Part shown: piece by piece, positions 4,385 to 52,101 of the stretch
Numbering within the stretch: position 1 is the stretch's first letter
Layout: the number at the start of each line of letters is the position of its first letter
Origin: a virus
Virus record (IMG/VR): IMGVR_UViG_3300032164_000009
Coordinates: 3,004 to 67,003 of that record
Length of the DNA: 64,000 bases
Strand: one strand, 5' to 3'
Position numbers and translations under genes: made by a program
Notes under the pieces: model-generated
What the model saw: the letters and a program-made list of their open reading frames with translations, nothing else
What the model was told of the DNA's origin: nothing
Databases searched by the model: none

Positions 4385-4663
4385 ATGAGAACCGATGAAT
4401 TGGCGAGTACAGCATTGATCGATGAAGCCCAGCGAAGATTGCCACCGGCAGTCGCCGCCTCGCTGTTTGGCGATGGGGCCGCCTCCACCGAAGAGGAGGC
4501 CAACGCCGAAATCAGCGAAGAATTGTGCGGCCCCGGCAAATTTGGAGTGCATCCCAAGTCAGATGCCGGCTGGGCGGTCGTCAACCTGGAGTCGGGGCGT
4601 GTCTGGGCTGAGTTTGCGGAATGCGGTGAGGCCGTGGATGCCGCGCGCAAACTGAATCAGTAG
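4385..4663 (+). CDS. Hypothetical protein
   Basis: AAGGAG RBS before ATG 4385. Confidence 0.55.
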   Translation: MRTDELASTALIDEAQRRLPPAVAASLFGDGAASTEEEANAEISEELCGPGKFGVHPKSDAGWAVVNLESGRVWAEFAECGEAVDAARKLNQ

Positions 4664-41169: not shown

Positions 41170-43275
41170 CTGAGCGACCAGCACGAATATGACCGGGAAC
41201 GCTCGCGCCGGAGACAGCAGGAATCGTCAACAAGCGGTCGAGATATCGGCCCCACGCCCCCGATTGCCGATGTTCGCCGTCGCAACCGATGCCGGCGGCT
41301 GGCCGTTTTCTGCACGACCTACAACCCGGTGGCGTTCTATTGGCATTGGAGCAATGAGCATCGCCGGGTGATTGCGGCTATCGAGCGGAGCGTCAAGGAG
41401 GGTTTGATTTTGGCGTTTGCGATGCCTAGGGGAAGCGGGAAAACGGCGATCTGCCGAATGGCGGTATTGTGGGCCGCGTCGTGGGGCCTGAGTTACTACG
41501 TCTACCTGATCGGTGCGAATGAACCGGCCGCCTTAAAAAACCTCGAAGCCGTCAAGGGCTGGATGCGAGCCCTCCATCCCTACGTCGATGACTTTCCAGA
41601 GATTTCTTGTGCGGTGGTGAAGCTCGGCAAGATCGCGCAGCGCGCCGCTGGCCAGCTTCAGAACGGCCAGCCGACCGACATTGTTTGGGAGACGAACCGA
41701 ATCGTCCTGCCCCGTGTCCAGGCCCCGCCCAATCTTCCAAAATGCGATCAGCGACCCGATGGAATGGCCGCGAGTTCGCAGGTAGTTATTGCCGTATCTG
41801 GTCTCACCGGGGAGGGCATCCGCGGCAGTTTATTTGCCGATTCGATTACAGGGGCCCTGCGGCGGCCAGACCTTATCCTGCTCGACGATCCGCAGACCGA
41901 TGAGTCGGCTAAATCGCTCCAACAGAATGCGGACCGCGAAGAGTTGATTGCGGGAGCCGTGCTCGGATTGGCTAATCCTGATAGACCGTCGGCCGTGGTG
42001 ATGCCTTGCACGGTCATTCGGCGAGGCGATATGGTTGATCGGATTCTCGATCGAAAGCGCAACCCGACGTGGCGTGGAATCCGGACGGCTTTTTTCAAGT
42101 CCATGCCTACCGACAAGGCAGCGTGGGAAGCGTATGAAGCCGAGTACCGGGAGGCCCTGGGACAGGACGTACCGGATCGGGCCCGGCTGAACCGCTACTA
42201 CCGAGAGCATCGGGCGGAACTGGATAAGGGGGCCGAAGTCTCATGGATTCAGCGCAAGACGTGGGAAGTGTCGGGGGTTCAGCATGGGATGCACCTCTTT
42301 TTTCAGAAGCGCTCGACATTTTTTGCGGAGTACCAGAACGATCCGCAAGAAGAGCGGAGCCCCCATTCCGTTTTGACGGCTGCTATCGTAATGAGTAAGG
42401 CGGCTGGATTGCCGTGCGGTACTATGCCACTCAATTGCGAGCACGTCGCGGCTTATTGTGACGTTCACGGGCGAGTACTCTACTGGCTGGTATCGGCGTG
42501 GTCGCAAAATTTTGGCGGTGGAGTGATCGACTACGGCACCTGGCCGCGACAGAACCGTGCATACTTTTCCCAGGAGTCGGCCCCGGTCGTCTTGGAAGAC
42601 ATCTATCCCGGTTTAGTCGATGATGCCCGAATCACGGCTGGCCTTCAGGCCGTGGCAGACGTATTGCTGGCGCGAAAGTTCACTCGTGAAGATGGGGCGG
42701 AATTCAAGATTGGAAAACTTTTGTTTGATGCCAAGTGGGGCGAGAAAAATGCCCTGGTCAAAGCATTCTGTCGGCGGCACCCCGCCTATCCGGAAATAGT
42801 TTTCCCCGCGCAGGGCTTAGGGATTGGGGCAAGCTCGAAGCCTTTCAATGAATACCGGCCGGAGCATGGGGCACGGATTGGCGAGCATTGGCGTATCCCG
42901 CCAGCAGTGAAGGGCGACCGTTGGGTGACCATTGACACGAATTGGTGGAAGAGTATCGCCGCGAGCCGGTTAGCGATGGCCATCGGCACGCCCGGCGGCT
43001 GGCAACTGTTCGGGCGAGACCCGCAAGAACACGAACTATTCGCGGACCATTGCATCGCTGAGGAGCCTGTCGAAACTACGGCAAAGGGCCGGACTGTTGA
43101 CGAATGGAAGTGGAAACCGGGGCGGCCGGACAATCATTGGTGGGACTGTTTAGTGGGGTCTGCGGTGGCTGGGTCGATGCTTGGCGTGCCGATGGCCGGG
43201 GGGAAGGTACGGAAGGCCATAGCCGATCCGATGCAGCGACCTTCGGCGGCGGACGTGGCGAGAGGGGGAAAGTGA
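41170..43275 (+). CDS. Terminase large subunit (GpA-like); probable CTG start at 41170
   Basis: MPRGSGKT (Walker A); RPDLILLDDPQT; EYQN.P; DNHWWDC; frame open upstream of the called start 41329, giving SGRDIGP.PP.AD..RR. Confidence 0.85.
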   Translation: MSDQHEYDRERSRRRQQESSTSGRDIGPTPPIADVRRRNRCRRLAVFCTTYNPVAFYWHWSNEHRRVIAAIERSVKEGLILAFAMPRGSGKTAICRMAVLWAASWGLSYYVYLIGANEPAALKNLEAVKGWMRALHPYVDDFPEISCAVVKLGKIAQRAAGQLQNGQPTDIVWETNRIVLPRVQAPPNLPKCDQRPDGMAASSQVVIAVSGLTGEGIRGSLFADSITGALRRPDLILLDDPQTDESAKSLQQNADREELIAGAVLGLANPDRPSAVVMPCTVIRRGDMVDRILDRKRNPTWRGIRTAFFKSMPTDKAAWEAYEAEYREALGQDVPDRARLNRYYREHRAELDKGAEVSWIQRKTWEVSGVQHGMHLFFQKRSTFFAEYQNDPQEERSPHSVLTAAIVMSKAAGLPCGTMPLNCEHVAAYCDVHGRVLYWLVSAWSQNFGGGVIDYGTWPRQNRAYFSQESAPVVLEDIYPGLVDDARITAGLQAVADVLLARKFTREDGAEFKIGKLLFDAKWGEKNALVKAFCRRHPAYPEIVFPAQGLGIGASSKPFNEYRPEHGARIGEHWRIPPAVKGDRWVTIDTNWWKSIAASRLAMAIGTPGGWQLFGRDPQEHELFADHCIAEEPVETTAKGRTVDEWKWKPGRPDNHWWDCLVGSAVAGSMLGVPMAGGKVRKAIADPMQRPSAADVARGGK

Positions 43276-43276
43276 G

Positions 43277-43768
43277 TTGAAGAAAGGCGGTGAAGAAATG
43301 GCGGGAGGCGAAACCGTGGTGATTGTTGGCGGTGGAGAGGCAATAGGTTGCTGCACGATCAGGCGAGAGAAGGTGAACTATGGCCCTTGCTCACTGTGCG
43401 AGCAGGACATCATCGGTGATCCGTTGACGGAAATGCCGTTTACCATTGGCTTCGCATCAGGTGAGCGGATCAAGATGCACCCCGCGTGCATCGACCGGGC
43501 GGCGATGATCCTACTCAGTATGGTTAAGGCACAAGTCAAGGCAGAGGGAGCGCAGACGGTCACGCCGCCGAAACGGAGGGCTTACCTCACAACCGGAACT
43601 CTCCTCTACTACCACGATGATGGAAATGTGTACTGCCCTGGGTGCGGGGCGGTTATGGACGTGAAGAACACAGGTACGTTTATGCTGGTGCGGTGTGATG
43701 CCTGCGATACCCGCGATAAGAAACCGGGGGTTGCGAAAGAGGCGGAAGGGGCAAGGGTGACCCGGTGA
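43277..43768 (+). CDS. Zinc-finger hypothetical protein
   Basis: CSLC, CPGCG and CDAC motifs. Confidence 0.5.
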   Translation: MKKGGEEMAGGETVVIVGGGEAIGCCTIRREKVNYGPCSLCEQDIIGDPLTEMPFTIGFASGERIKMHPACIDRAAMILLSMVKAQVKAEGAQTVTPPKRRAYLTTGTLLYYHDDGNVYCPGCGAVMDVKNTGTFMLVRCDACDTRDKKPGVAKEAEGARVTR

Positions 43769-44667
43769 TTGTCAACATCGACACGCGAAATCACCCCTGT
43801 GCCGGCTATGTAGGCGACTACGTTATCCTTCTAAAGCTACTGGTCGAGGCGGCGGGGCATCAGGTGGGCAGTGCCGAGACAAGTAGTTGTCATGTTTTCA
43901 TCGAAGGATTCGGTTCGGGCTTCGGTGACAAGATGAAGGCGATCAAGGGCCGGGGAGACGTGATCCTGGTGACCTCGGAGATCGTGACCGGCGGCACGTT
44001 CAACGGCTTCCCCGACTACACCCACGCAACCGGCCAGAACTGGCAGAGGCGCTTCGATAACTTCAGGGCGTGTGCCAAACACGCCCGGGCGGTGTGGTGT
44101 GGCGTTGACGACCCGGAACAGATCGGGGCCTATCAGGCGATCGTTGACTGTCCGGTGATACCGCTGCCGTTCTTTTACTTCCCGGCGTATCCTCGATTCG
44201 CCCACGTGCCAAACCAAAACGTCGATGTGTTTTTCTGGGGCCAGCACGTTCCGTATCGCGACAAGTTGATCTCGGGACTGAGGCATGATCTGAAGGGGTC
44301 CACCATTGAGTATCCATCGTTTATGCCCGGCAAGGAGCGGGACGAACTGGCGGCGCGGAGCAAGATCGCGCTGAACCTGAAGCAAAGCGCCCAGTGGGCT
44401 TATCCGTCAATCGTGCGGTATTGGTATCACCTCAGCAACGCTTCGTTCATCTTGGGCGAGGAATGCGAGAAGCGATGCAAGCTGAACGACTATGTGCTCG
44501 CGGTGCCTTCCGAGCAACTGGGCGAGACGTGCGTGGAACTGCTTGGCAGCGGTCGATGGAAGCGATTGGCGACTGACTCATACGAACGTTTTGCGGCCGA
44601 GTTGCCGGGCGGGCTGGCGGCGGAGGAATTGTTTGATCGGAGTTTCAGCGGAGTGCCCAAACTATGA
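43765..44667 (+). CDS. Glycosyltransferase-like protein (GT-B C-terminal type)
   Basis: DVFFWG....R..L; RDEL.ARSKIALNL; FILGE. Confidence 0.55.
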   Translation: MIVNIDTRNHPCAGYVGDYVILLKLLVEAAGHQVGSAETSSCHVFIEGFGSGFGDKMKAIKGRGDVILVTSEIVTGGTFNGFPDYTHATGQNWQRRFDNFRACAKHARAVWCGVDDPEQIGAYQAIVDCPVIPLPFFYFPAYPRFAHVPNQNVDVFFWGQHVPYRDKLISGLRHDLKGSTIEYPSFMPGKERDELAARSKIALNLKQSAQWAYPSIVRYWYHLSNASFILGEECEKRCKLNDYVLAVPSEQLGETCVELLGSGRWKRLATDSYERFAAELPGGLAAEELFDRSFSGVPKL

Positions 44668-44927
44668 CAGAAACGGGAACGATCAAGACAGTGGAGGAGA
44701 TTCTCGGTGAATCGCAAACGCCCGATGTGCTGAACCTATATCAGGCGATTGGAGACGCTGGTTTCGGTCTGGAGTTGAGCCCGGATCGGACCAACCCCAA
44801 ACTCTGGTCCGGACACTTCTGGTTCGACGGGACGCCTCGCGTGATTGCGGCAGACACGCCCGCCGCAGTTATTATGAGGGTATCTCAAGCGATCATCGAA
44901 GGGCGATTAGTAAAGAAGAAGCCATGA
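44664..44927 (+). CDS. Hypothetical protein
   Basis: ATGA coupling. Confidence 0.5.
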   Translation: MTETGTIKTVEEILGESQTPDVLNLYQAIGDAGFGLELSPDRTNPKLWSGHFWFDGTPRVIAADTPAAVIMRVSQAIIEGRLVKKKP

Positions 44928-45106
44928 AGTGTGAAATTTGCGGCGGGCGGTGTGTCCTTGATGCCCACACGGCGGATTGTACGGCGTGTGGTCAGCACTA
45001 TGAGCAGCCGGGATCATTTGTCTATCGGATTGTCCTGACCAATGAGCAGCGGGCCTTGCTCCAAAAGGCAGCGCGGCCGAGCGAAGCAAAGGAGATCAAG
45101 ACATGA
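44924..45106 (+). CDS. Small zinc-ribbon protein
   Basis: CEICGG..CTACG. Confidence 0.5.
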   Translation: MKCEICGGRCVLDAHTADCTACGQHYEQPGSFVYRIVLTNEQRALLQKAARPSEAKEIKT

Positions 45107-45564
45107 CAGACGGGCGAGAACCGGAGACTCCGATTGATCCAATAGAGAAGGCTTTCTTCAGGTGTATCAACTGCGGTCTTGAACGGTCCACGATTGAAGA
45201 GTTCACATATAGGTGGGACAGTACGCTTGGCACCCGGGATTGCCGAGAGCGTTTGGCCCAGGATGACGTGGGCGAATATCGTCCTTCGCCGTGCGGAGCG
45301 GAACCGGCTCATGTGATACTACTAGACGATTCCAATCCTTCTCGGTACTTAGTCGCCTTCATCGACTACCGACCCTTCACCATCAATACAGATGCGCTTG
45401 CAGTCAAGGGACTGCCAGAAATCGGTGCTAGTCGGAAGTCGGGAGGCGGAGTTGAACTGCTCAGTCTCCGTGCGCCTATACTCATTTCCCGCCAGATGTC
45501 TGAAGTAAGGTGCTATTGGGAAAGCATAACAAGGAGCGCAACAAATTGTGCCCTGGGTAGGTGA
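45103..45564 (+). CDS. Hypothetical protein
   Basis: AAGGAG RBS; ATGA coupling. Confidence 0.4.
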   Translation: MTDGREPETPIDPIEKAFFRCINCGLERSTIEEFTYRWDSTLGTRDCRERLAQDDVGEYRPSPCGAEPAHVILLDDSNPSRYLVAFIDYRPFTINTDALAVKGLPEIGASRKSGGGVELLSLRAPILISRQMSEVRCYWESITRSATNCALGR

Positions 45565-45652
45565 CTACGTGAATGATGCCGTCGCGGTTGGTTTTGCCGG
45601 GGCGGATCGAGGCGGTGTGTGAAGTGTTTCTAACCTAAAGGAGTGCAGTCTA

Positions 45653-46303
45653 ATGATGTACGAAGCGAAGTTTTCCCTGACCGGCGACATGCCCCTCATT
45701 ATGCACCAGGACGATGTTGAGGCGTCCGATACCTTAATGGCCTGGCGCAAGGCCCCCGAGAACAAAAACCTGAGCGTGGCTGGCGATGATCGCAGCCCGC
45801 CCTGGACGTGGCAGACCTACCTCTATTCGGACGGAGAGAACGTCACGATCCCCGCCCAAAATCTTATGGTTGCCATCCGGCAGGCCGGCACTCAGATTAT
45901 CCTGAAGAAACAGAAGACCTACAAGGAGATCAGCCAGAGTGGGTTGTTGATTCCGACTGAGTATCTGGACTTCAGCACGGCCGGGCGGAAGGTCGAGATT
46001 GGCGAGATTGAGGCGGTGCGAGATTTGCCGTTTCAAGAGCAATCGGAGGCGGCCCGCAAACTCGGCTTTCGACTATTCATCAAGCGCGCCGTCATCGGCA
46101 AGGCCAAGCACGTTCGGGTCCGGCCCCGCTTCGATGTGTGGGAACTGGCTGGCACGATTCGCGTTTTGGTCCCTGAGATCACTTGGGACGTGCTTGGCAA
46201 GTTGTTTGAACTGGCCGGGCGGGTCGGGCTTTGCGACTGGCGGCCGGGGTGTAAGACGCCGGGGCCCTACGGGATGTTCACGGCGAAAGTGACAAAATGC
46301 TAG
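45653..46303 (+). CDS. Stand-alone RAMP/Cas7-like RNA-binding protein (effector candidate of the GGY-NN array)
   Basis: N-terminal beta strand LTG..PLIMH; IPAQNL...IR.A; R.RPRF..W; C-terminal Gly-rich loop GRVGLCDWRPG...GPYGMF; AAAGGAG RBS; no other cas genes nearby. Confidence 0.75.
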   Translation: MMYEAKFSLTGDMPLIMHQDDVEASDTLMAWRKAPENKNLSVAGDDRSPPWTWQTYLYSDGENVTIPAQNLMVAIRQAGTQIILKKQKTYKEISQSGLLIPTEYLDFSTAGRKVEIGEIEAVRDLPFQEQSEAARKLGFRLFIKRAVIGKAKHVRVRPRFDVWELAGTIRVLVPEITWDVLGKLFELAGRVGLCDWRPGCKTPGPYGMFTAKVTKC

Positions 46304-47024
46304 GGTTCGGCATTGTTGGGTCAGGTACGGCCCGGTATGGCTCGGTAGAGCAAGGTCCGGTCTGGCAAGGCTGGGCACGGCCCGGCAGAGCGTGGTGAGG
46401 TAAGGTTCGGCGTGGCAAGGGCGCAGAGCGCAGGGAATAGGGAGAATTAAACCAATCTCGGCTCGGTAGGGCAAGGCGTGGCGTTGTCAGGCAAGGCATG
46501 GTCGGGCTTGGTAGTGTGCGGCCGGGTCCGGCGCGGTCCGGTCGGGCGCGGCAAGGCGAGGGCGCAGAGCACACGGAACGAGAAACGAAATAAGTTATGT
46601 ACGGTGCGGTTCGGTCCGGCGTGGTCTGGCAGAGCACGGTGCGGTGCGGCCGGGTGGGGTTCGGCACGGCAGAGCCTGGTGAGGTCCGGCAAGCCTCGGC
46701 TGAGCTAGGCATGGCCGGGCCAGGCAAGGCAAGGGCACAGAGTGCAAGGAGCGGAGAAAACGAAACAACTATGGTTCGGTACGGTTCGGCCTGGCTGGCC
46801 TCGGCATGGCATGGTGGGGTCCGGTTCGGTAGGGTCCGGCTTGGCAGAGCAAGGCGCGGCACGGCACGGCAAGGCGGGGCGAGGGTGCAGAGCACACGGA
46901 ACGAGAAACCAAATAAGCTAAGGTCGGGCAGGGCTTGGTCCGGCTTGGTCCGGCAAGGTTAGGCATGGCATGGTCGAGCGCGGTGCGGCGCGGCAGAGCA
47001 TGGTTTGGCGAGGGTACTGAGTAC
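46304..47024 (+). ncRNA. Array of five GGY-NN pentamer guide units, each ending in a small hairpin, joined by A-rich linkers
   Basis: Tracts 46304-46418 (23 pentamers), 46460-46559 (20), 46598-46732 (27), 46773-46882 (22), 46922-47011 (18). Confidence 0.85.
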
Positions 47025-47053
47025 AAAACTTTAACCAGTGCAGAGGAGTGAAA

Positions 47054-47548
47054 ATGTTCAAGTCAGATTCGGAAAGCAGAGCGGCGGGCGAGCGACTTTG
47101 GCGGACGTTCGGCGACAAGTCGCGGGGCGAGACGATCACTTGGTCGAACCTTGAGGCGGTCATGGGCCGGACCCGGATTGAACCGGGCGGTTGGCATATC
47201 ATCCGGCGTTTTCGTAAGCGGCTTCTCCGAGAGCGCCGGATTGTCACGCTTCCGGCCGATACCGTGGGCTTGCGCTTGTTGACTCACCAGGAGACAGCCC
47301 GAGAGGTGCCGGCGTTGCGACAACGGCGGGCATATCGACAGATCAACCGATGCCTAAAGGAAACCGCAACCGTCGATGGAACCGGCTTGACGGATCACGA
47401 GCGGAAGGTACTGGCGGTGCAACGGCACAATCTCGCCTTTCAGCGGCTTCAGATCGGGCGGTCGCGCCGGCAGTTGGTGCAGGGGACGAAGAAAACCGAG
47501 GTCAATCCGTTACGGAAAGAGAAGGCCGCCGAATTAGTGGGAGCATAA
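47054..47548 (+). CDS. Basic accessory protein embedded in the guide array (winged-helix-like)
   Basis: GAGGAG RBS; Arg-rich; lies between guide units 5 and 6. Confidence 0.65.
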   Translation: MFKSDSESRAAGERLWRTFGDKSRGETITWSNLEAVMGRTRIEPGGWHIIRRFRKRLLRERRIVTLPADTVGLRLLTHQETAREVPALRQRRAYRQINRCLKETATVDGTGLTDHERKVLAVQRHNLAFQRLQIGRSRRQLVQGTKKTEVNPLRKEKAAELVGA

Positions 47549-47557
47549 CTGCGATTG

Positions 47558-47660
47558 GGCTGGGCAAGGCTAGGCGCGGCAGGGCCCGGCTTGGCAGAGC
47601 GTGGCAGGGTTCGGCGGGGCCGGGTGCGGTTCGGCTACGCATGGCAAGGGGACTGAGTCC
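47558..47660 (+). ncRNA. Sixth GGY-NN guide unit
   Basis: 18 pentamers followed by GG-GGAC-TGA-GTCC hairpin. Confidence 0.8.
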
Positions 47661-47741
47661 ATGGTGACTTGATATTGAAAACAATCTGACCAGCAACACA
47701 CCTGGGGTCCGCGAGCCCTGGGACCGTGGGGCGTAACGGAG

Positions 47742-47776
47742 CGGCGCGTCGGAGCCGACACCGACGCGCCGTTTTT
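47742..47776 (+). terminator. Terminator-like hairpin with U-tract
   Basis: CGGCGCGTCGG/CCGACGCGCCG stem plus TTTTT. Confidence 0.6.
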
Positions 47777-47810
47777 GTTGCGCCTGCTGGTCGGTCTTGA
47801 GAAACGAAAC

Positions 47811-48059
47811 ATGAAACCCGAAGACCGCCCATCGGCGAGCGAAGTGGCAGGCCCGGCTCAGCGGGGCATCCGCTGCCCGGAGTGCCATGCCGCCGGGGAG
47901 TGGTCCGTCAATTACGGTCGCCACATTCCAGGGGGCTATCGGCGGGTACGGGTTTGCCGCAAGTGCGGCCACCGAACAGTCACGCTTGAGCGGCTCGCGG
48001 GGGATCGGTCCACCGGTGGAACTTCCCCGCCGGTAAGCGGTGATTCGGCATTGGAATGA
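47811..48059 (+). CDS. Zinc-ribbon protein (NrdR N-terminal/Ogr-like)
   Basis: GIRCPEC...RRVRVCRKCGHRTVT.E. Confidence 0.65.
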   Translation: MKPEDRPSASEVAGPAQRGIRCPECHAAGEWSVNYGRHIPGGYRRVRVCRKCGHRTVTLERLAGDRSTGGTSPPVSGDSALE

Positions 48060-48143
48060 CCGGAGAGTAGCCCTATCCTGAAATAGACAACCCAACCGGG
48101 CGACGCTCCGGGCCGATCCCCCAGAGCGAACCTAGCGCAGCAC

Positions 48144-48182
48144 AAGGCTGTATGGAGCCATACCTCCATGCGGCCTTTTTTG
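48144..48182 (+). terminator. Terminator-like hairpin upstream of the head genes
   Basis: AAGGCTGTATGGAG/CTCCATGCGGCCTT stem plus T-run. Confidence 0.6.
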
Positions 48183-48218
48183 TTGCGCTCGCCCGAGTTG
48201 TGGCTGTCGGGAGCAGCC

Positions 48219-48416
48219 ATGGCAGATGACCTCTCCGACCTGATTGAAACCGCCGTCGAGGCCCCGCAGTCCGTGACTGTGGCCGGCGGCAGCGTTGCAT
48301 CTCGCCCCCTCCCCGAGTTGATCGAGGCGGATAAGTATCTGGCTGCCAAGCGGGCCCGCACCAAGAACCACTGCGGCCTCATCTTCCGCACCCTTGAACC
48401 CGGAGGTTGCGGGTGA
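48219..48416 (+). CDS. Head-tail joining protein (gpW-like)
   Basis: Small gene directly before the portal; P.SVTV.G.SV...L.ELIEADKYL. Confidence 0.7.
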   Translation: MADDLSDLIETAVEAPQSVTVAGGSVASRPLPELIEADKYLAAKRARTKNHCGLIFRTLEPGGCG

Positions 48417-49945
48417 ACCTGTTTGGTCGAATTCGCCGTGCATTCTCCCGGGCCCCGGCAGTCCGTCCCTCGCCTGAGATAGGCCGCCCCGTTCGCGGAC
48501 GCTATGACGCCGCGGGCTATGGGACCGAGACCAAGAATATCTGGCTCAACGCGGACGCCCTCGATGCTGACGCCGCGAATTCTCTGGCCGTGCGAAAGAA
48601 CCTTCGCCAGCGCTCACGATACGAGCGGACCAACAACGGGCACGCATCGGGGATTGTCGGGACGCAGGCAAACTACGTCATCGGAACCGGGCCGAAGTTG
48701 CGGATGCAGACCGGTTCAACCGGGTTCAATCGGATGATTGAGGCGAGGTGGGGCAGTTGGTGTGCGGCCACCCACTTCATGCGGAAACTCCGCACTCTCA
48801 ATAAGGCCAAGACCGGCGACGGCGAAGCGTTTGGTCATTTTCGCACCAACCCTGGTCTAGCCGATCCGGTGAAGTTGGATCTCCGCACCTTGGAGTGCGA
48901 CCAGATTACGGCACCGGCGTTGACCGCGATCAACGATGAAAACTACATCGACGGTATCCGCTTCGATGAATGGGGCAACGTCATCAGTTATGAGGTGCTC
49001 GACTGCCATCCTGGGGCCCTCTGGTCTTGGATCGGGGCCCGCGACGGATACCAGACGATCCCCGCCAAGTTCATGGCCCATTGGTTCAACGAAGATCGCA
49101 GCGGGCAGCATCGCGGGGTTCCTGAGATCACGCCGACTCTGAATTTGTTCGGCACGGGTCGGCGATACCGCGAAGCGGTTGTTGCGGCGGCTGAGACGGC
49201 GGCCGACTTCTCGGCGATTGTCAACATGGGCTCGCCGGATGATACCGGCCCTGATCAACTCCGACCATTCAGTACCTTTCCAATCGACAAGCGGACGTTG
49301 ATGGTCAGTCCGGCCGGATCGACCACCACTCAACTCAAGCCCGAGCAGCCGGCGACTAGCTACGTTGACTTCACACGCTCGATGCTTTGCGAAGAGGCCC
49401 GACCGCTGAACATGCCGTACAACATCGCGGCGTGCGATTCCAGCGACTACAGCTTCAGCGGCGGGCGGCTGGATCACCTGACCTATTACGTGAGCGTGGG
49501 CGTCGAGCGACAAGATTGCGAAACCCTCGTCTTGGAGAAAGCCTTCGCGCTCTGGTTTGCCGAGGCAATTCTCCGCTACGGCTGGACAGTTCCGGCCGAA
49601 CCCGCCCCCCGGCACTCATGGGGCTGGCCGGCAATGCCGCAGATCGACCAGGAAAAGACGGCGAACGCTCGCAAGACCTCTATGGGCCTGGGCATTCAAT
49701 CTCCCAGCCGCGTTGGCGACGAAGACGGCTACGACGATGAGGACGAGTTGGAAGTGCTGGCCACGGATCATGGCGTAACCGTCGAGGAGATGCGGGAGAT
49801 TCGCCGCGAGTCGATCTTCGCCCAGTCCGCGGCCCCTCCGGTCAAGACGAATACCGACGGAGATCAACCCGCCTCAGACAAGAGCCTGCCGCCGTCCAAG
49901 GTCGCACCCAAACGCAATGGTGCCACACGAGGAGCGTTCGTATGA
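48413..49945 (+). CDS. Portal protein, lambda family
   Basis: YDAA; LR.RSRYE..NN; DGEAF; IDGI.FDEWG; GQHRGVP; D.SDYSFSGGRLD. Confidence 0.9.
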   Translation: MNLFGRIRRAFSRAPAVRPSPEIGRPVRGRYDAAGYGTETKNIWLNADALDADAANSLAVRKNLRQRSRYERTNNGHASGIVGTQANYVIGTGPKLRMQTGSTGFNRMIEARWGSWCAATHFMRKLRTLNKAKTGDGEAFGHFRTNPGLADPVKLDLRTLECDQITAPALTAINDENYIDGIRFDEWGNVISYEVLDCHPGALWSWIGARDGYQTIPAKFMAHWFNEDRSGQHRGVPEITPTLNLFGTGRRYREAVVAAAETAADFSAIVNMGSPDDTGPDQLRPFSTFPIDKRTLMVSPAGSTTTQLKPEQPATSYVDFTRSMLCEEARPLNMPYNIAACDSSDYSFSGGRLDHLTYYVSVGVERQDCETLVLEKAFALWFAEAILRYGWTVPAEPAPRHSWGWPAMPQIDQEKTANARKTSMGLGIQSPSRVGDEDGYDDEDELEVLATDHGVTVEEMREIRRESIFAQSAAPPVKTNTDGDQPASDKSLPPSKVAPKRNGATRGAFV

Positions 49946-52101
49946 AAAAGCACGCGGCACGCCACGTCAAGGCCCGCATGATTCGAGCCGCCCAAAAATG
50001 CGGAATGATCCAGGCCGAAGCCGTCGCCGTCGAGTGGATTCAAGCCGCCGAAGGCGAATCCGCCGACAAGCCGATTCGCTTCACCATGACGGCCTACACC
50101 GGCGGGCCGATGCGAGTGGACGGTTACTACGATCCGGTCGTTATCGATCTGGAAGGTCTGGAAGCCAAGCCGCCTTTCCCGAGTCTTCGTGACCATGACA
50201 TGGGGCAGATCGTCGGGCACATCGACGAGGCCGAGATCGGGTCGGTGGTCAAGGTTGGCGGCATCATCTCCGGGGCCAATGAATTCGCCGCTCAGGTTGT
50301 GAGCAGTTCCAAAGCCGGCTTCCCCTGGAAAGCCTCGATCGGCGCGATGCCCGCCGCGAACGGGTTGGAGTTCATCGGCGACGGTATCAGTACGAAAGTC
50401 AATGGCAAGTCGTTTAAGGGACCGCTCATCATCGCCCGCAAGGCCACGGTGCGTGAAGTCTCATTTGTGGCGATTGGTGCAGACGCCAAAACCTCAGTCA
50501 AAGTTGCGGCGTCCGCCGCGAATTCCAAGGAGATCGAAAACATGAAACCCGAACTGCAAACGTACATCGAGGCGATGGGACTGGTCGTGAGCGAACTTCG
50601 CGACGACACGATCGCCAAGATCAAGACCAAGTACGATGCCGACCTGAAGGCCGCAACGGAGGCCGCCGCAATCAAGGCGAAGGCCACGGAAAAGCCGCCG
50701 GAGGCGGTCAAGGTCGAACCCCCGGCGTTCGATCTGCGATCGACGATCCTCTGCTACGAGAAGCACGTCGCCATCATCCAGGCCAAGGCCGCCGAGTATG
50801 CCGGCAAGATCGACGCCGCCGCGCTGGCTCCGGTCATGGCCAAGGCCCAACAGGACGCGGCGCAGTTGAAACTCCAGGCGCTCAAGGAAGAGTGGTCGCC
50901 GGTCAAACTCGAAGCGGCTTACGTCATGCCCGCGGCGATCTTCGCTGCGGACCTGATGGGCCTGGAGCGACCCAAGGGTCCGGCCATTCACGGGAGTCCG
51001 CGGGACTTGCAACCGCAGGTTATCGAGGCGGCCTTTGCTCAGTCCTGCGGACTCAAGCAACCCGAAAAGCATTACAAGCCGGAGATTCTCGAAGCGGCTG
51101 ACAAGCACTTCCGCAACATCGGCATCCAAGAGGTGCTCCTGATCCACGCCCAGGCCGCCGGCTATGCAGGCCGCCAGAAGATCACCGTCGGCAATCTCCG
51201 CGAGGTTATGAATGCCGCCTTTTCGACACACACCCTCACCACGCTGCTGACGACTACGGGCAACAAGATTCTGCTCGAAGGGTTCAACCAGATCCCGCAG
51301 TCATGGCGGGAGATTGCCGAGATCGGAAACGTCGTGGATTTCAAGACCGTGACGCGCTTCCGCCTGACGGCCGACATGCAATACGAAGAGGTTGGCGCGG
51401 CTGGCGAACTCAAGCACGGCACGGTCGGCCAAGAGACCTACACGATGGCCGCGAAGACCTACGGCAAGATGGCGGCCTTCACTCGCCAAGACATTATCAA
51501 CGATGACTTGGGTGCGCTGAACGCGGTCCGAAGCCGTCTTGGTCTCGGCGGTGCGATCAAGTTGCAGAATGTCTTCTGGACGGTCTGGATCGATAACACC
51601 GCCTTCTTTACTGGAGCCCGGGCGAATCTCGTTACGGGAAGCACCCTGGGCGACACGGGACTCGCAACCGCCATCGCAGCCTTCCGCAACATGGCGGGAC
51701 CGGATGGGAACAAGTTGAACCTGGAGCCGGCCGTCTTGCTCGTTCCGCCTTCCTTGGAAGCCACGGCCCGGAAGTTCTACGTCAGCCAGGAACTCCGCGA
51801 CACGAGCGCAAGCACGCGACTGGCGACGGCGAACATCTACTACAACCGCTTCCGCCCGGTCGTGGTGCCTGAGTTGGAAACAGCGTCCTTCGGCGGTGCC
51901 TACAGCGCCTCGACCTGGTATCTGCTCGCCGCTCCGACGGTTCTTGCGACCGCCGTGATGTGCTTCCTCGACGGCCAACAGGCTCCGACGATCGAGAGCA
52001 GTGACGCGGACTTCGATACGCTCGGAATCCAGTTCCGGGCGTATCACGACTTCGGGGCGGCGTTCTCCGAGTATCGTGCCGGCGTCAAGGCGACGGCATG
52101 A
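49942..52101 (+). CDS. Prohead protease-scaffold-major capsid fusion protein
   Basis: AYTGG...DH...GFPWKASIG...EVSFV protease domain; DFK, GELKHG, KTYG, IINDDLGA and YHDFG capsid motifs. Confidence 0.9.
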   Translation: MKKHAARHVKARMIRAAQKCGMIQAEAVAVEWIQAAEGESADKPIRFTMTAYTGGPMRVDGYYDPVVIDLEGLEAKPPFPSLRDHDMGQIVGHIDEAEIGSVVKVGGIISGANEFAAQVVSSSKAGFPWKASIGAMPAANGLEFIGDGISTKVNGKSFKGPLIIARKATVREVSFVAIGADAKTSVKVAASAANSKEIENMKPELQTYIEAMGLVVSELRDDTIAKIKTKYDADLKAATEAAAIKAKATEKPPEAVKVEPPAFDLRSTILCYEKHVAIIQAKAAEYAGKIDAAALAPVMAKAQQDAAQLKLQALKEEWSPVKLEAAYVMPAAIFAADLMGLERPKGPAIHGSPRDLQPQVIEAAFAQSCGLKQPEKHYKPEILEAADKHFRNIGIQEVLLIHAQAAGYAGRQKITVGNLREVMNAAFSTHTLTTLLTTTGNKILLEGFNQIPQSWREIAEIGNVVDFKTVTRFRLTADMQYEEVGAAGELKHGTVGQETYTMAAKTYGKMAAFTRQDIINDDLGALNAVRSRLGLGGAIKLQNVFWTVWIDNTAFFTGARANLVTGSTLGDTGLATAIAAFRNMAGPDGNKLNLEPAVLLVPPSLEATARKFYVSQELRDTSASTRLATANIYYNRFRPVVVPELETASFGGAYSASTWYLLAAPTVLATAVMCFLDGQQAPTIESSDADFDTLGIQFRAYHDFGAAFSEYRAGVKATA

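What the first reader, a model, noticed from the sequence alone, without database searches (positions are those of the whole stretch)
46419..47660. Covarying 4-bp hairpin closes every guide unit
Seen: after each tract, GG is followed by GCGC-AGA-GCGC (46421), GCGC-AGA-GCAC (46562, one mismatch), GCAC-AGA-GTGC (46735), GTGC-AGA-GCAC (46885), GTAC-TGA-GTAC (47014) and GGAC-TGA-GTCC (47650). The sequence changes but pairing and the WGA loop are kept. Inference: compensatory change indicates a functional RNA element, such as a processing or 3' capping handle analogous to a CRISPR repeat stem.
Basis: seen in the sequence. Interest (0 to 1): 0.8.

Follow-up and report, generated by a model that had tools for sequence, protein, structure and literature searches.

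The report
Hairpin tails of phage VIPR guide RNAs

Summary
Observation confirmed. Six in-phase (GGY-NN)n tracts (18-26 units) each end in GG followed at once by an 11-nt hairpin: a 4-bp stem with a WGA loop. Five are perfect and one has a C.A mismatch.

The gene just upstream (45653-46303, 216 aa) folds as a minimal Cas7-type RAMP. It is a profile-level homologue of the Vipr protein of Escherichia phage SUSP1 (hhalign 97%, E 7.7e-11). So the locus is a VIPR system: Vipr plus vrRNAs (bioRxiv 10.64898/2026.04.26.720920.720927 and 10.64898/2026.10.15.759431). The hairpin is this clade's form of the published structured vrRNA 3' "tail".

In 77 viral loci with a Vipr homologue, 75 carry tracts on the gene's strand and 0 on the other strand. 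Of 160 tract ends followed by GGG, 133 have a hairpin starting exactly at the third G, against 7.3 in shuffled tails. The two middle base pairs covary, while the outer G-C pair, the closing C-G pair and the loop are kept.

No RNA data exist for this phage, so the RNA ends remain inferred. The same scan has already met VIPR loci in at least 7 other genomes. Verdict: a real, functional element that is a new member of a known kind.

The parts
45653..46303 (+). vipr gene: 216-aa minimal Cas7-type RAMP (Vipr homologue)
   Evidence: AF2 model with pLDDT 86 and pTM 0.83. Every Foldseek row listed among 48 hits at E<=1e-3 is a chain of a type VII or type III-A (Csm) CRISPR effector complex. VIA-align Z is 10.2, 10.1 and 10.0 to a Cmr-beta complex chain, a Csm complex chain and Csm3. 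hhalign of family profile A1 against the SUSP1 195-aa protein gives probability 97%, E 7.7e-11 over 184 columns. H18, R157 and D195-W196-R197 are invariant. In the alignment H18 and D195-W196-R197 lie opposite the SUSP1 contact residues H17 and D177-W178-R179 named in the paper. R157 opposite R138 is my own count of the printed alignment.
46304..46420 (+). vrRNA 1 repeat tract: 23 GGY-NN units plus the terminal GG
   Evidence: It starts directly after the vipr stop codon. The NN positions align in frame to the major capsid gene's 3' end at 52003.
46421..46431 (+). tail hairpin 1, GCGC-AGA-GCGC
46460..46561 (+). vrRNA 2 repeat tract: 20 units plus GG
46562..46572 (+). tail hairpin 2, GCGC-AGA-GCAC (one C.A mismatch)
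   Evidence: RNAfold keeps only 2 pairs.
46603..46734 (+). vrRNA 3 repeat tract: 26 units plus GG
   Evidence: The NN positions align in frame to the capsid gene's 3' end at 52027.
46735..46745 (+). tail hairpin 3, GCAC-AGA-GTGC
46773..46884 (+). vrRNA 4 repeat tract: 22 units plus GG
   Evidence: The NN positions align in frame to the capsid gene at 51946.
46885..46895 (+). tail hairpin 4, GTGC-AGA-GCAC
46922..47013 (+). vrRNA 5 repeat tract: 18 units plus GG
   Evidence: No significant in-window match.
47014..47024 (+). tail hairpin 5, GTAC-TGA-GTAC
   Evidence: The RNAfold minimum-energy fold prefers a longer alternative pairing with sequence upstream of the next gene's ribosome-binding site.
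47054..47548 (+). 164-aa gene inside the array: candidate vipr-accessory (vap) gene, assigned by position only
   Evidence: phrog_5926, unknown function. No Pfam, PADLOC or NCBIfam family. Homologues lie downstream of vipr in 13 of 77 loci. No similarity to the SUSP1 146-aa neighbour gene (BLASTP E 25).
47558..47649 (+). vrRNA 6 repeat tract: 18 units plus GG
   Evidence: No significant in-window match.
47650..47660 (+). tail hairpin 6, GGAC-TGA-GTCC
47743..47779 (+). terminator-like GC-rich stem plus U-run that closes the cassette
   Evidence: RNAfold -29 kcal/mol, z -4.2, 0 of 200 shuffles as stable. The consensus terminator scan did not list it.
51946..52101 (+). 3' end of this phage's own protease/major-capsid gene: the self homologue of the region that vrRNAs 1, 3 and 4 are written against
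   Evidence: The window-wide best scores of tracts 1, 3 and 4 all fall here, on codon positions 1-2. Shuffled tracts put their top hit here in 0, 1 and 0 of 300.

Best explanation
The six hairpins are the 3' tails of six vrRNAs of a phage-encoded VIPR (Viral Interference Programmable Repeat) system. The 216-aa Vipr protein is a minimal Cas7-like RAMP. By homology to the published SUSP1 system, one protomer binds each pentamer, holds the GGY bases in protein pockets, and presents the NN dinucleotides. These pair with DNA while every third target base is skipped, which gives transcriptional silencing of competing phages.

The repeat register ends where a G replaces the obligatory pyrimidine (GG-G). 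That G opens a 4-bp stem with a WGA triloop, followed by an A. [quoted passage not shown] My inference is that it marks the end of the filament register, shields the 3' end, and gives the terminal protomer or an accessory protein a fixed feature. That feature would be the outer G-C pair, the closing C-G pair and the loop. The two middle pairs need only pair, and therefore covary.

Shown here: the anatomy, the fold and homology of Vipr, co-orientation, positional conservation and covariation. Taken from the papers: filament formation, the 1-nt skip rule, and tail capping in SUSP1. Inferred: the RNA ends in this phage and the exact job of the hairpin.
For: - Tract anatomy: 127 of 127 units have a pyrimidine at position 3, and 125 have G at position 2.
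- Vipr identity: Cas7-type fold. hhalign to the SUSP1 195-aa protein that lies between that phage's GGYNN tracts gives 97%, E 7.7e-11. In that alignment the SUSP1 GGY-contact residues H17 and D177-W178-R179 (named in 10.64898/2026.04.26.720927, section 5) lie opposite H18 and D195-W196-R197, which are invariant in the family. R138 opposite invariant R157 is my own count.
- Association: 75 of 77 viral loci with a Vipr homologue carry tracts of at least 7 units on the gene's strand, and 0 of 77 on the other strand.
- Position-specific hairpin: 133 of 160 GGG-ended tracts, against 7.3 in shuffled tails.
- Covariation in alignment A2 (23 rows): score 0.823 against 0.135 shuffled, 31 cells changed on both sides, 0 of 500 shuffles as high, and slid controls at most 0.142.
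- Covariation in alignment A3 (48 rows): score 0.659 against 0.109, with 60 double-change cells.
- Within a locus the loop plus closing pair are nearly uniform while stems differ. The base after the hairpin is A in 102 of 133.
- SUSP1 tails begin in the same way: GG, then a G-started 4-bp helix closed by C, then A.
- Literature: the tail is described as a structurally conserved cap that parallels the crRNA handle, and the pseudoknot caps the 3' end.
- Target logic fits VIPR. The NN positions of tracts 1, 3 and 4 align in frame to codon positions 1-2 of the capsid gene's 3' end. Across 1.78 Mb of loci, all six top hits of tract 1 are the 3' ends of the six related capsid genes.
Against: - No RNA evidence exists for this phage. 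No listed run is RNA, so the unit ends are inferred.
- The hairpins are weak. Fold z-scores run from -1.2 to +1.1. The exact stem is in the minimum-energy fold for only 4 of 6 tails. Tail 2 has a mismatch, and tail 5 prefers another pairing.
- Alignments A2 and A3 were built from rows already selected for pairing, except window tail 2. Their percent-paired figures are therefore true by construction, and only the diversity of pairs and the separate unselected test carry weight.
- 27 of the 160 GGG-ended tracts lack the hairpin, and 13 of 55 loci have none.
- Many other tract-bearing viral loci have different 3' flanks or none, so the hairpin is specific to this clade and not universal.
- No target with 80% or more of NN bases matched was found. 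The best figures are 31/46 at DNA level and 34/46, 36/52 and 32/44 against 120 capsid homologues read at protein level.
- The 164-aa gene shows no similarity to SUSP1 vap1.
Confidence: 0.85

Rival explanations
1. The hairpin is mainly a cleavage signal. A host or phage endoribonuclease would recognise it and cut the long array transcript into units, and the hairpin would have no role in the mature ribonucleoprotein.
For: The units are arranged head to tail with no detected promoter between them: 0 sigma-70-like sites in 45000-48200. So processing of a long transcript is plausible. Other VIPR types use hammerhead ribozymes between vrRNAs (paper passage), which shows that inter-unit processing elements exist in the family.
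Against: In SUSP1 the tail stays on the mature vrRNA and is seen capping the filament. Solo vrRNAs that share the consensus tail are described as competent for complex formation. No nuclease gene is evident in the cassette. The promoter scan covers only the sigma-70 consensus and proves little for this unknown host.
Confidence: 0.1
2. The hairpins are weak intrinsic terminators or attenuators that set the relative dosage of the units and of the downstream gene.
For: They sit at the 3' end of each unit. Tail 5 can pair alternatively with sequence upstream of the ribosome-binding site of the 164-aa gene.
Against: No U-run follows any of them; the next base is A in 102 of 133 cases and the spacers are A/C/G-rich. 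Stems of 4 bp at about -2 to -4 kcal/mol are far below terminator strength. A genuine terminator-like structure (-29 kcal/mol with a U-run) stands only at the end of the cassette.
Confidence: 0.03
3. The hairpins are not a selected RNA structure. They would be short palindromes inherited through unit duplication, or a DNA-level protein-binding site.
For: The units are clearly paralogous. Spacers 2 and 4 are nearly identical over about 25 nt, so shared descent explains part of the similarity.
Against: Descent alone does not explain pairs changed on both sides in 31 and 60 cells. Nor does it explain the exact placement at offset 2 in 133 of 160 ends across 42 of the 55 loci that have such ends. 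The strand-specific association with vipr, 75 of 77 against 0 of 77, points to an RNA.
Confidence: 0.02

Closest known systems
vrRNA 3' tail of the type II VIPR system of Escherichia phage SUSP1 (bioRxiv 10.64898/2026.04.26.720920; 10.64898/2026.04.26.720927; 10.64898/2026.10.15.759431)
   Same: A structured element directly 3' of the last YNNGG repeat, on the strand of a homologous Vipr gene. In both it starts right after GG with a G-opened 4-bp helix closed by C and followed by A. It is present on every unit of the array, and it is read as a cap that parallels the crRNA handle.
   Different: The SUSP1 tail is about 40 nt and forms a pseudoknot through a roughly 10-nt loop. Here the loop is 3 nt, so no pseudoknot is possible and the tail is an 11-nt hairpin. 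Tracts here have 18-26 units, against the published 9-16. The Vipr proteins are related only at profile level: tblastn against 50,697 GenBank phage records found nothing. The accessory gene is unrelated in sequence.
crRNA repeat-derived 3' hairpin handle of class 1 CRISPR systems (for example type I-E/I-F, bound by Cas6). This comparison rests on established knowledge, not on a call.
   Same: A short GC-rich stem-loop at the 3' end of each guide, repeated along an array, with a Cas7-fold backbone protein coating the guide.
   Different: There is no CRISPR array with spacers of unrelated sequence between identical repeats. No Cas6, Cas5 or other cas HMM matches the two cassette proteins. The guide is a 5-nt periodic GGY-NN code, not a contiguous spacer. 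The stems differ between units of one locus, whereas CRISPR repeats are near-identical.
Other vrRNA array architectures in the same family: staggered overlapping arrays and hammerhead-interspersed arrays (legends of figs S18 and S19, seen as passages)
   Same: The same GGY-NN code and the same association with Vipr. Viral loci with junctions that shift phase and have no tail appear in my own scan (for example L004, L006, L009).
   Different: Those arrays delimit units by a 1-nt overlap or by ribozymes. This locus delimits each unit by a hairpin plus a 26-39-nt A-rich spacer.

Membership tests
VIPR system | Vipr protein: a small stand-alone RAMP (RRM core, G-loop, thumb) homologous to characterised Vipr | tested here: met
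   AF2 pLDDT 86. Every Foldseek row listed among 48 hits at E<=1e-3 is a chain of a type VII or type III-A (Csm) CRISPR effector complex. VIA-align Z about 10 to a Cmr-beta chain, a Csm chain and Csm3. hhalign to the SUSP1 195-aa protein: 97%, E 7.7e-11, 184 columns.
VIPR system | Residues that read G1, G2 and Y3 of the repeat (SUSP1 H17, R138, D177, W178, R179) | tested here: met
   In the alignment H17 and D177-W178-R179 lie opposite H18 and D195-W196-R197. R138 opposite R157 is my own count of that alignment. All five are invariant in the 32-sequence alignment A1. The SUSP1 residue roles come from section 5 of 10.64898/2026.04.26.720927.
VIPR system | vrRNAs made of tandem GGY-NN (YNNGG) pentamers next to vipr, on the same strand | tested here: met
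   Six tracts with 127 units: pyrimidine at position 3 in 127 of 127, and positions 4-5 close to random. In 77 homologous loci, 75 have tracts on the gene's strand and 0 on the other.
VIPR system | A structurally conserved 3' tail after the repeat tract | tested here: met
   A hairpin after all 6 tracts. 133 of 160 in the clade against 7.3 in shuffled tails. Covariation. The shape differs from the SUSP1 pseudoknot.
VIPR system | NN dinucleotides match natural DNA targets by the 1-nt skip rule, with the skipped base at the codon wobble position | tested here: inconclusive
   Tracts 1, 3 and 4 align in frame, on codon positions 1-2, to the capsid gene's 3' end. The matches are only 61-67% at DNA level and 69-74% against 120 homologues read as proteins. 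No target at 80% or more is in hand. Tracts 2, 5 and 6 have no match.
VIPR system | An accessory vap gene in the operon | tested here: inconclusive
   A 164-aa gene sits inside the array, with homologues in 13 of 77 loci. It has no similarity to SUSP1 vap1 and no family hit. The six vap families are defined in supplements that I could not see.
VIPR system | vrRNAs are expressed as discrete small RNAs and co-purify with Vipr | not testable with these tools
   No RNA run holds the stretch. Laying DNA contigs cannot show RNA ends.
VIPR system | Type assignment (I-VII) | not testable with these tools
   Types are defined by the Vipr phylogeny, vrRNA architecture and vap genes in fig. 5, fig. S16 and data S4 (methods). 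Figures and supplements are not held.
CRISPR-Cas (class 1) | A CRISPR array of near-identical repeats with unique spacers, plus other cas genes (Cas5, Cas6, large subunit or adaptation genes) | tested here: not met
   The repeat structure is a 5-nt periodic tract, not repeat-spacer. The 10 ORFs from 41329 to 52101 give only phage head and packaging families or none. The two cassette proteins hit no PADLOC model. Only the fold of one protein is shared.
Rfam RNA families | A match to any curated covariance model | tested here: not met
   0 matches at E<=1 over 44000-50000 on both strands.

The most novel reading that the evidence does not exclude
In this clade the vrRNA tail has shrunk to an 11-13-nt triloop hairpin. 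Its loop plus closing pair (C-WGA-G here, C-AAT-G or C-TAY-G in sister loci) would be a lineage-specific identity tag read by the cognate Vipr or its accessory protein. That would keep the guide sets of co-infecting VIPR phages orthogonal. The same C-AGA-G core recurs inside the unusually long 18-26-unit tracts, as G|AGC units. These echoes would then mark internal sub-guide boundaries, which would make a compound vrRNA architecture that the preprints do not describe.
Probability: 0.12. Interest if true: 0.5.

Novelty: new member of a known kind. Interest (0 to 1): 0.25.

Why it matters
The finding confirms, on independent sequence data, that the structured 3' cap of VIPR guide RNAs is under selection for pairing. 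It also shows that the cap can be as small as a 4-bp triloop hairpin, in contrast to the 40-nt pseudoknot of the one system solved so far.

It gives a simple rule for this clade: GG, then a G-opened stem, a C-G closing pair, a 3-nt loop, and an A after the stem. That rule could help annotate vrRNA ends and design minimal guides.

It also adds a natural case in which several guides of one phage are written against the 3' end of the major capsid gene of its own relatives. The system itself, its code and the existence of a tail are already published, so the gain is incremental.

Tried and rejected
**What I tried that led nowhere or was rejected**

- Before finding the papers I considered several readings and dropped them once Vipr homology was shown: a TRAP-like ring protein binding a 5-nt register, 2-tier G-quadruplex arrays, Chi-like or packaging sites, pentapeptide-repeat coding, and a type III toxin-antitoxin repeat RNA.
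- Rfam: no match. Tandem Repeats Finder sees only fragments of the tracts.
- A search for a near-perfect natural target failed. A 12-base spaced-seed search of 302 tracts against 120 loci gave 674 seed hits against 639 for shuffled tracts, and none reached 70% over the full length.
- An own-locus scan of the 302 tracts gave 17 real maxima above 10 shuffles, against about 27 expected by chance. So there is no general self-similarity signal in loci of 15 kb or less.
- Six loci of capsid-gene relatives carry no tracts.
- Expression: no RNA holder is listed.
- Laying the contigs of 4 sediment DNA runs gave only fragmentary cross-mapping pieces, many with GGYNN-like loose ends. I draw no conclusion from it.
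- T-arm-like sequences after tracts in L027 and L033: ARAGORN finds no tRNA.
- tblastn of the 216-aa protein against GenBank phages: no match.
- PADLOC: none. NCBIfam: only a sub-threshold GroES hit (E 0.02, 15 bits against a cut-off of 122).
- The crude any-offset hairpin test (214 of 345 against 1018 of 3000 random places) was too permissive. I replaced it with the fixed-offset test.
- I did not build a covariance model. The fixed-geometry alignments and the unselected count answered the question.
- I did not align or count the 18 unique 4-bp/4-nt-loop tails.
Figs S9 and S16-S19 and data S3/S4 may already show hairpin-type tails, the type of this clade, or capsid-gene targets. I also did not see the papers' figures.
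Full report
**What is in the sequence.** Between 46304 and 47660 the + strand carries six tracts of strictly in-phase pentamers. They have 23, 20, 26, 22, 18 and 18 units. Over the 127 units, position 1 is G in 114, position 2 is G in 125, position 3 is a pyrimidine in all 127, and positions 4-5 are close to random. This is the only period-5 GG signal in the 64-kb window, and the opposite strand has none. Five stems are perfect and one (46562) has a C.A mismatch. The outer G-C pair, the loop-closing C-G pair, the WGA loop and the following A are constant. The two middle pairs differ between units yet still pair. A 26-39-nt A/C/G-rich spacer, or a ribosome-binding site plus ATG, follows.

**Context.** The assembly is a single 67,003-bp contig. 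It carries a gpA-like large terminase (41329-43275), a lambda-type portal (48407-49945) and a protease/major-capsid fusion (49942-52101). It is therefore a phage, and the tract cassette sits inside the head module. The gene that ends one base before tract 1 (45653-46303, 216 aa) has no Pfam family but belongs to PHROG 4652. It has 899 homologues at E<=1e-3. A 164-aa gene (47054-47548, PHROG 5926) lies between units 5 and 6. A strong terminator-like stem with a U-run closes the cassette at 47743-47779, although the consensus scan did not list it.

**The protein.** An AlphaFold2 model from a 32-sequence alignment has pLDDT 86 and pTM 0.83. Foldseek against the PDB gives 48 hits at E<=1e-3. Every listed row is a chain of a type VII or type III-A (Csm) CRISPR effector complex. 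The independent VIA-align search gives Z 10.2, 10.1 and 10.0 to a Cmr-beta complex chain, a Csm complex chain and Csm3, and Z 9.3-9.4 to Cas7-11/gRAMP. No Cas HMM matches it.

**How widespread it is.** These contain 302 tracts of at least 10 units, with very varied 3' flanks. A search with the protein family found 77 viral loci. Of these, 75 carry tracts of at least 7 units on the gene's strand and none on the other strand. Protein and tracts are thus one co-oriented unit.

**Identity.** A full-text search found three 2026 preprints on VIPR systems. I read the Results, Discussion and one methods section of 10.64898/2026.04.26.720920, plus passages. I read section 5 and passages of 10.64898/2026.04.26.720927. 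I read section 7 and passages of 10.64898/2026.10.15.759431.

The preprints describe a phage-encoded minimal RAMP, Vipr, and vrRNAs of 9-16 YNNGG repeats followed by a structurally conserved 3' tail. The NN dinucleotides pair with DNA while every third target base is skipped, usually the codon wobble base. The targets lie in competing phages and satellites.

I fetched the SUSP1 record. It has three GGYNN tracts with tails flanking a 195-aa and a 146-aa gene. The profile of the window's protein family matches the 195-aa protein with hhalign probability 97% and E 7.7e-11 over 184 columns. In that alignment the published GGY-contact residues H17 and D177-W178-R179 lie opposite H18 and D195-W196-R197. 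By my own count R138 lies opposite R157. All five are invariant in the family. The locus is therefore a VIPR system, and the hairpins are its vrRNA tails.

**Testing the hairpin.** I took every tract end in the window plus the 77 loci (345 ends called). I kept the 160 followed by GGG, a criterion that does not involve pairing.
- 133 have a hairpin of 4/3, 5/3 or 4/4 (stem bp/loop nt) geometry starting exactly at the third G.
- Shuffled tails give a mean of 7.3 of 160.
- Other start offsets give 1-9, except offset 3 (84, the nested inner stem of 5-bp hairpins) and offset 7 (23).

The 185 other 'ends' are mostly premature calls at degenerate internal units, or belong to clades with other junctions. 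Of 55 loci with GGG ends, 38 have the hairpin at all such ends and 13 at none.

For pair statistics I aligned the unique 4-bp/3-nt tails. These were 22 rows picked by the pairing filter, plus the mismatched window tail 2 (alignment A2). I also aligned the unique 5-bp/3-nt tails: 48 of 49 rows, with one dropped because it ran off its locus (alignment A3).
- A2: covariation score 0.823 against 0.135 in shuffles, 31 cells changed on both sides, 0 of 500 shuffles as high, slid controls at most 0.142.
- A3: 0.659 against 0.109, 60 double-change cells, slid controls at most 0.098.

These rows were chosen for pairing, so the near-100% paired figures are true by construction. The informative points are that the second and third pairs take four to five pair types, and that the outer G-C and closing C-G pairs hardly vary. 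Within a locus the loop plus closing pair is nearly uniform while stems differ. The window has five different stems among its five perfect hairpins.

**Limits.** The hairpins are thermodynamically weak. RNAfold recovers the exact stem in 4 of 6 isolated tails, with z-scores from -1.2 to +1.1. Tail 2 is mismatched, and tail 5 prefers a longer pairing. No RNA run holds the phage, so the ends of the RNAs are not known. Laying DNA contigs was uninformative.

**Comparison with the known tail.** SUSP1 tails also begin right after GG, with a G-opened 4-bp helix closed by C and followed by A. Their roughly 10-nt loop pairs downstream to form the published pseudoknot. Here the 3-nt loop excludes a pseudoknot. 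So the hairpin corresponds in position to the first helix of the SUSP1 tail and is a minimal version of it.

The cryo-EM paper reports the pseudoknot capping the 3' end. It also reports that the protomers nearest the pseudoknot are the ones always resolved during DNA engagement. The third paper treats a shared tail as what makes a solo vrRNA competent for complex formation. From this I infer that the hairpin stops the repeat register, caps and protects the 3' end, and offers a fixed feature to the terminal protomer or an accessory protein. Whether it also directs cleavage of an array transcript is open.

**Targets.** This follows a lead from another first-reader note. I read the NN positions antisense with one base skipped. 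The best-scoring places in the whole window for tracts 1, 3 and 4 are then 52003, 52027 and 51946. All three are in the last 160 nt of the phage's own capsid gene and all fall on codon positions 1-2 (28/46, 29/52 and 29/44 bases).
- Shuffling unit order puts the top hit in that region in 0, 1 and 0 of 300 trials. It reaches the local score in 0 of 300 each, though the window-wide score is reached in 2, 93 and 1 of 300.
- Against 120 capsid homologues read at protein level, the matches rise to 34/46, 36/52 and 32/44. The maxima over 100 shuffles are 28, 33 and 30.
- Across 1.78 Mb of fetched loci, the six best hits of tract 1 are the 3' ends of the six related capsid genes, with a maximum of 31/46.
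- Tracts 2, 5 and 6 have no significant match.

This fits the published picture of guides written against relatives with lower self-match. However, no target at 80% or more is in hand, so the target assignment is suggestive only.

**Verdict.** The element is the tail of VIPR guide RNAs, a kind of system published in 2026. This scan has already met VIPR loci in at least 7 other genomes, including one follow-up on covarying tail hairpins. What is specific here is the minimal triloop form of the tail, the long tracts, and the apparent aim at the capsid gene's 3' end.

Noticed in passing
window 46304-46884 versus 51946-52101: The NN positions of tracts 1, 3 and 4, read antisense with one base skipped, align in frame to codon positions 1-2 of the last 160 nt of the phage's own capsid gene. 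They match related capsid genes better. No target at 80% or more was found.
   Followed up: partly
window 46304-47647: The tracts have 18-26 units, longer than the 9-16 given in the discovery preprint. In the 77 related loci my caller gives a median of 11 and a maximum of 26, and the maximum is this window.
   Followed up: partly
window, e.g. 46344-46353, 46384-46393, 46628-46637, 46668-46677, 46843-46852: All 9 units that start AG instead of GG are AGC and follow a unit ending in G, most often as GGCAG-AGC. This repeats the C-AGA-G core of the tail hairpin inside the tracts. In the wider clade G|AGC is the commonest single combination, but it accounts for only 25 of 280 degenerate units.
   Followed up: partly
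window 47743-47779: A strong terminator-like hairpin with a U-run (-29 kcal/mol, z -4.2) lies 83 nt after the last vrRNA tail. The consensus terminator scan missed it.
   Followed up: partly
window 47012-47053: Tail 5's 5' arm can pair alternatively with a CAGUGC stretch just upstream of the ribosome-binding site of the 164-aa gene. This fold is preferred by RNAfold (-6.9 kcal/mol) and might couple the tail to expression of the accessory gene.
   Followed up: no
L001-L120 (e.g. L002, L008, L018, L028, L046; L004, L006, L009; L010, L019): Tract-bearing viral contigs show many other 3' flanks: longer hairpins, junctions that shift phase and have no tail, and tracts that run straight into a ribosome-binding site and ATG. 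Tail architecture is therefore specific to each clade.
   Followed up: no
L027 rc 4424-4470 and 4551-4600; L033 5468-5512: Sequences resembling a tRNA T-arm (GGTTCGAnnCC) follow tracts directly, but ARAGORN calls no tRNA in either locus.
   Followed up: partly
window 43277-45564: Five ORFs between the terminase and vipr (163, 300, 87, 60 and 153 aa) have no family hit. They have no tblastn homologue in any of the 204 fetched loci. The whole 5-kb stretch between terminase and portal looks like an accessory insert.
   Followed up: no
sediment metagenome runs X1-X4 laid on window 45653-47800: Many short contigs cross-map at 80-90% to the tracts, and their unmatched ends are themselves GGYNN-like. 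This suggests that numerous other vrRNA arrays occur in the same kind of sample. The pieces are too fragmentary for any count.
   Followed up: no
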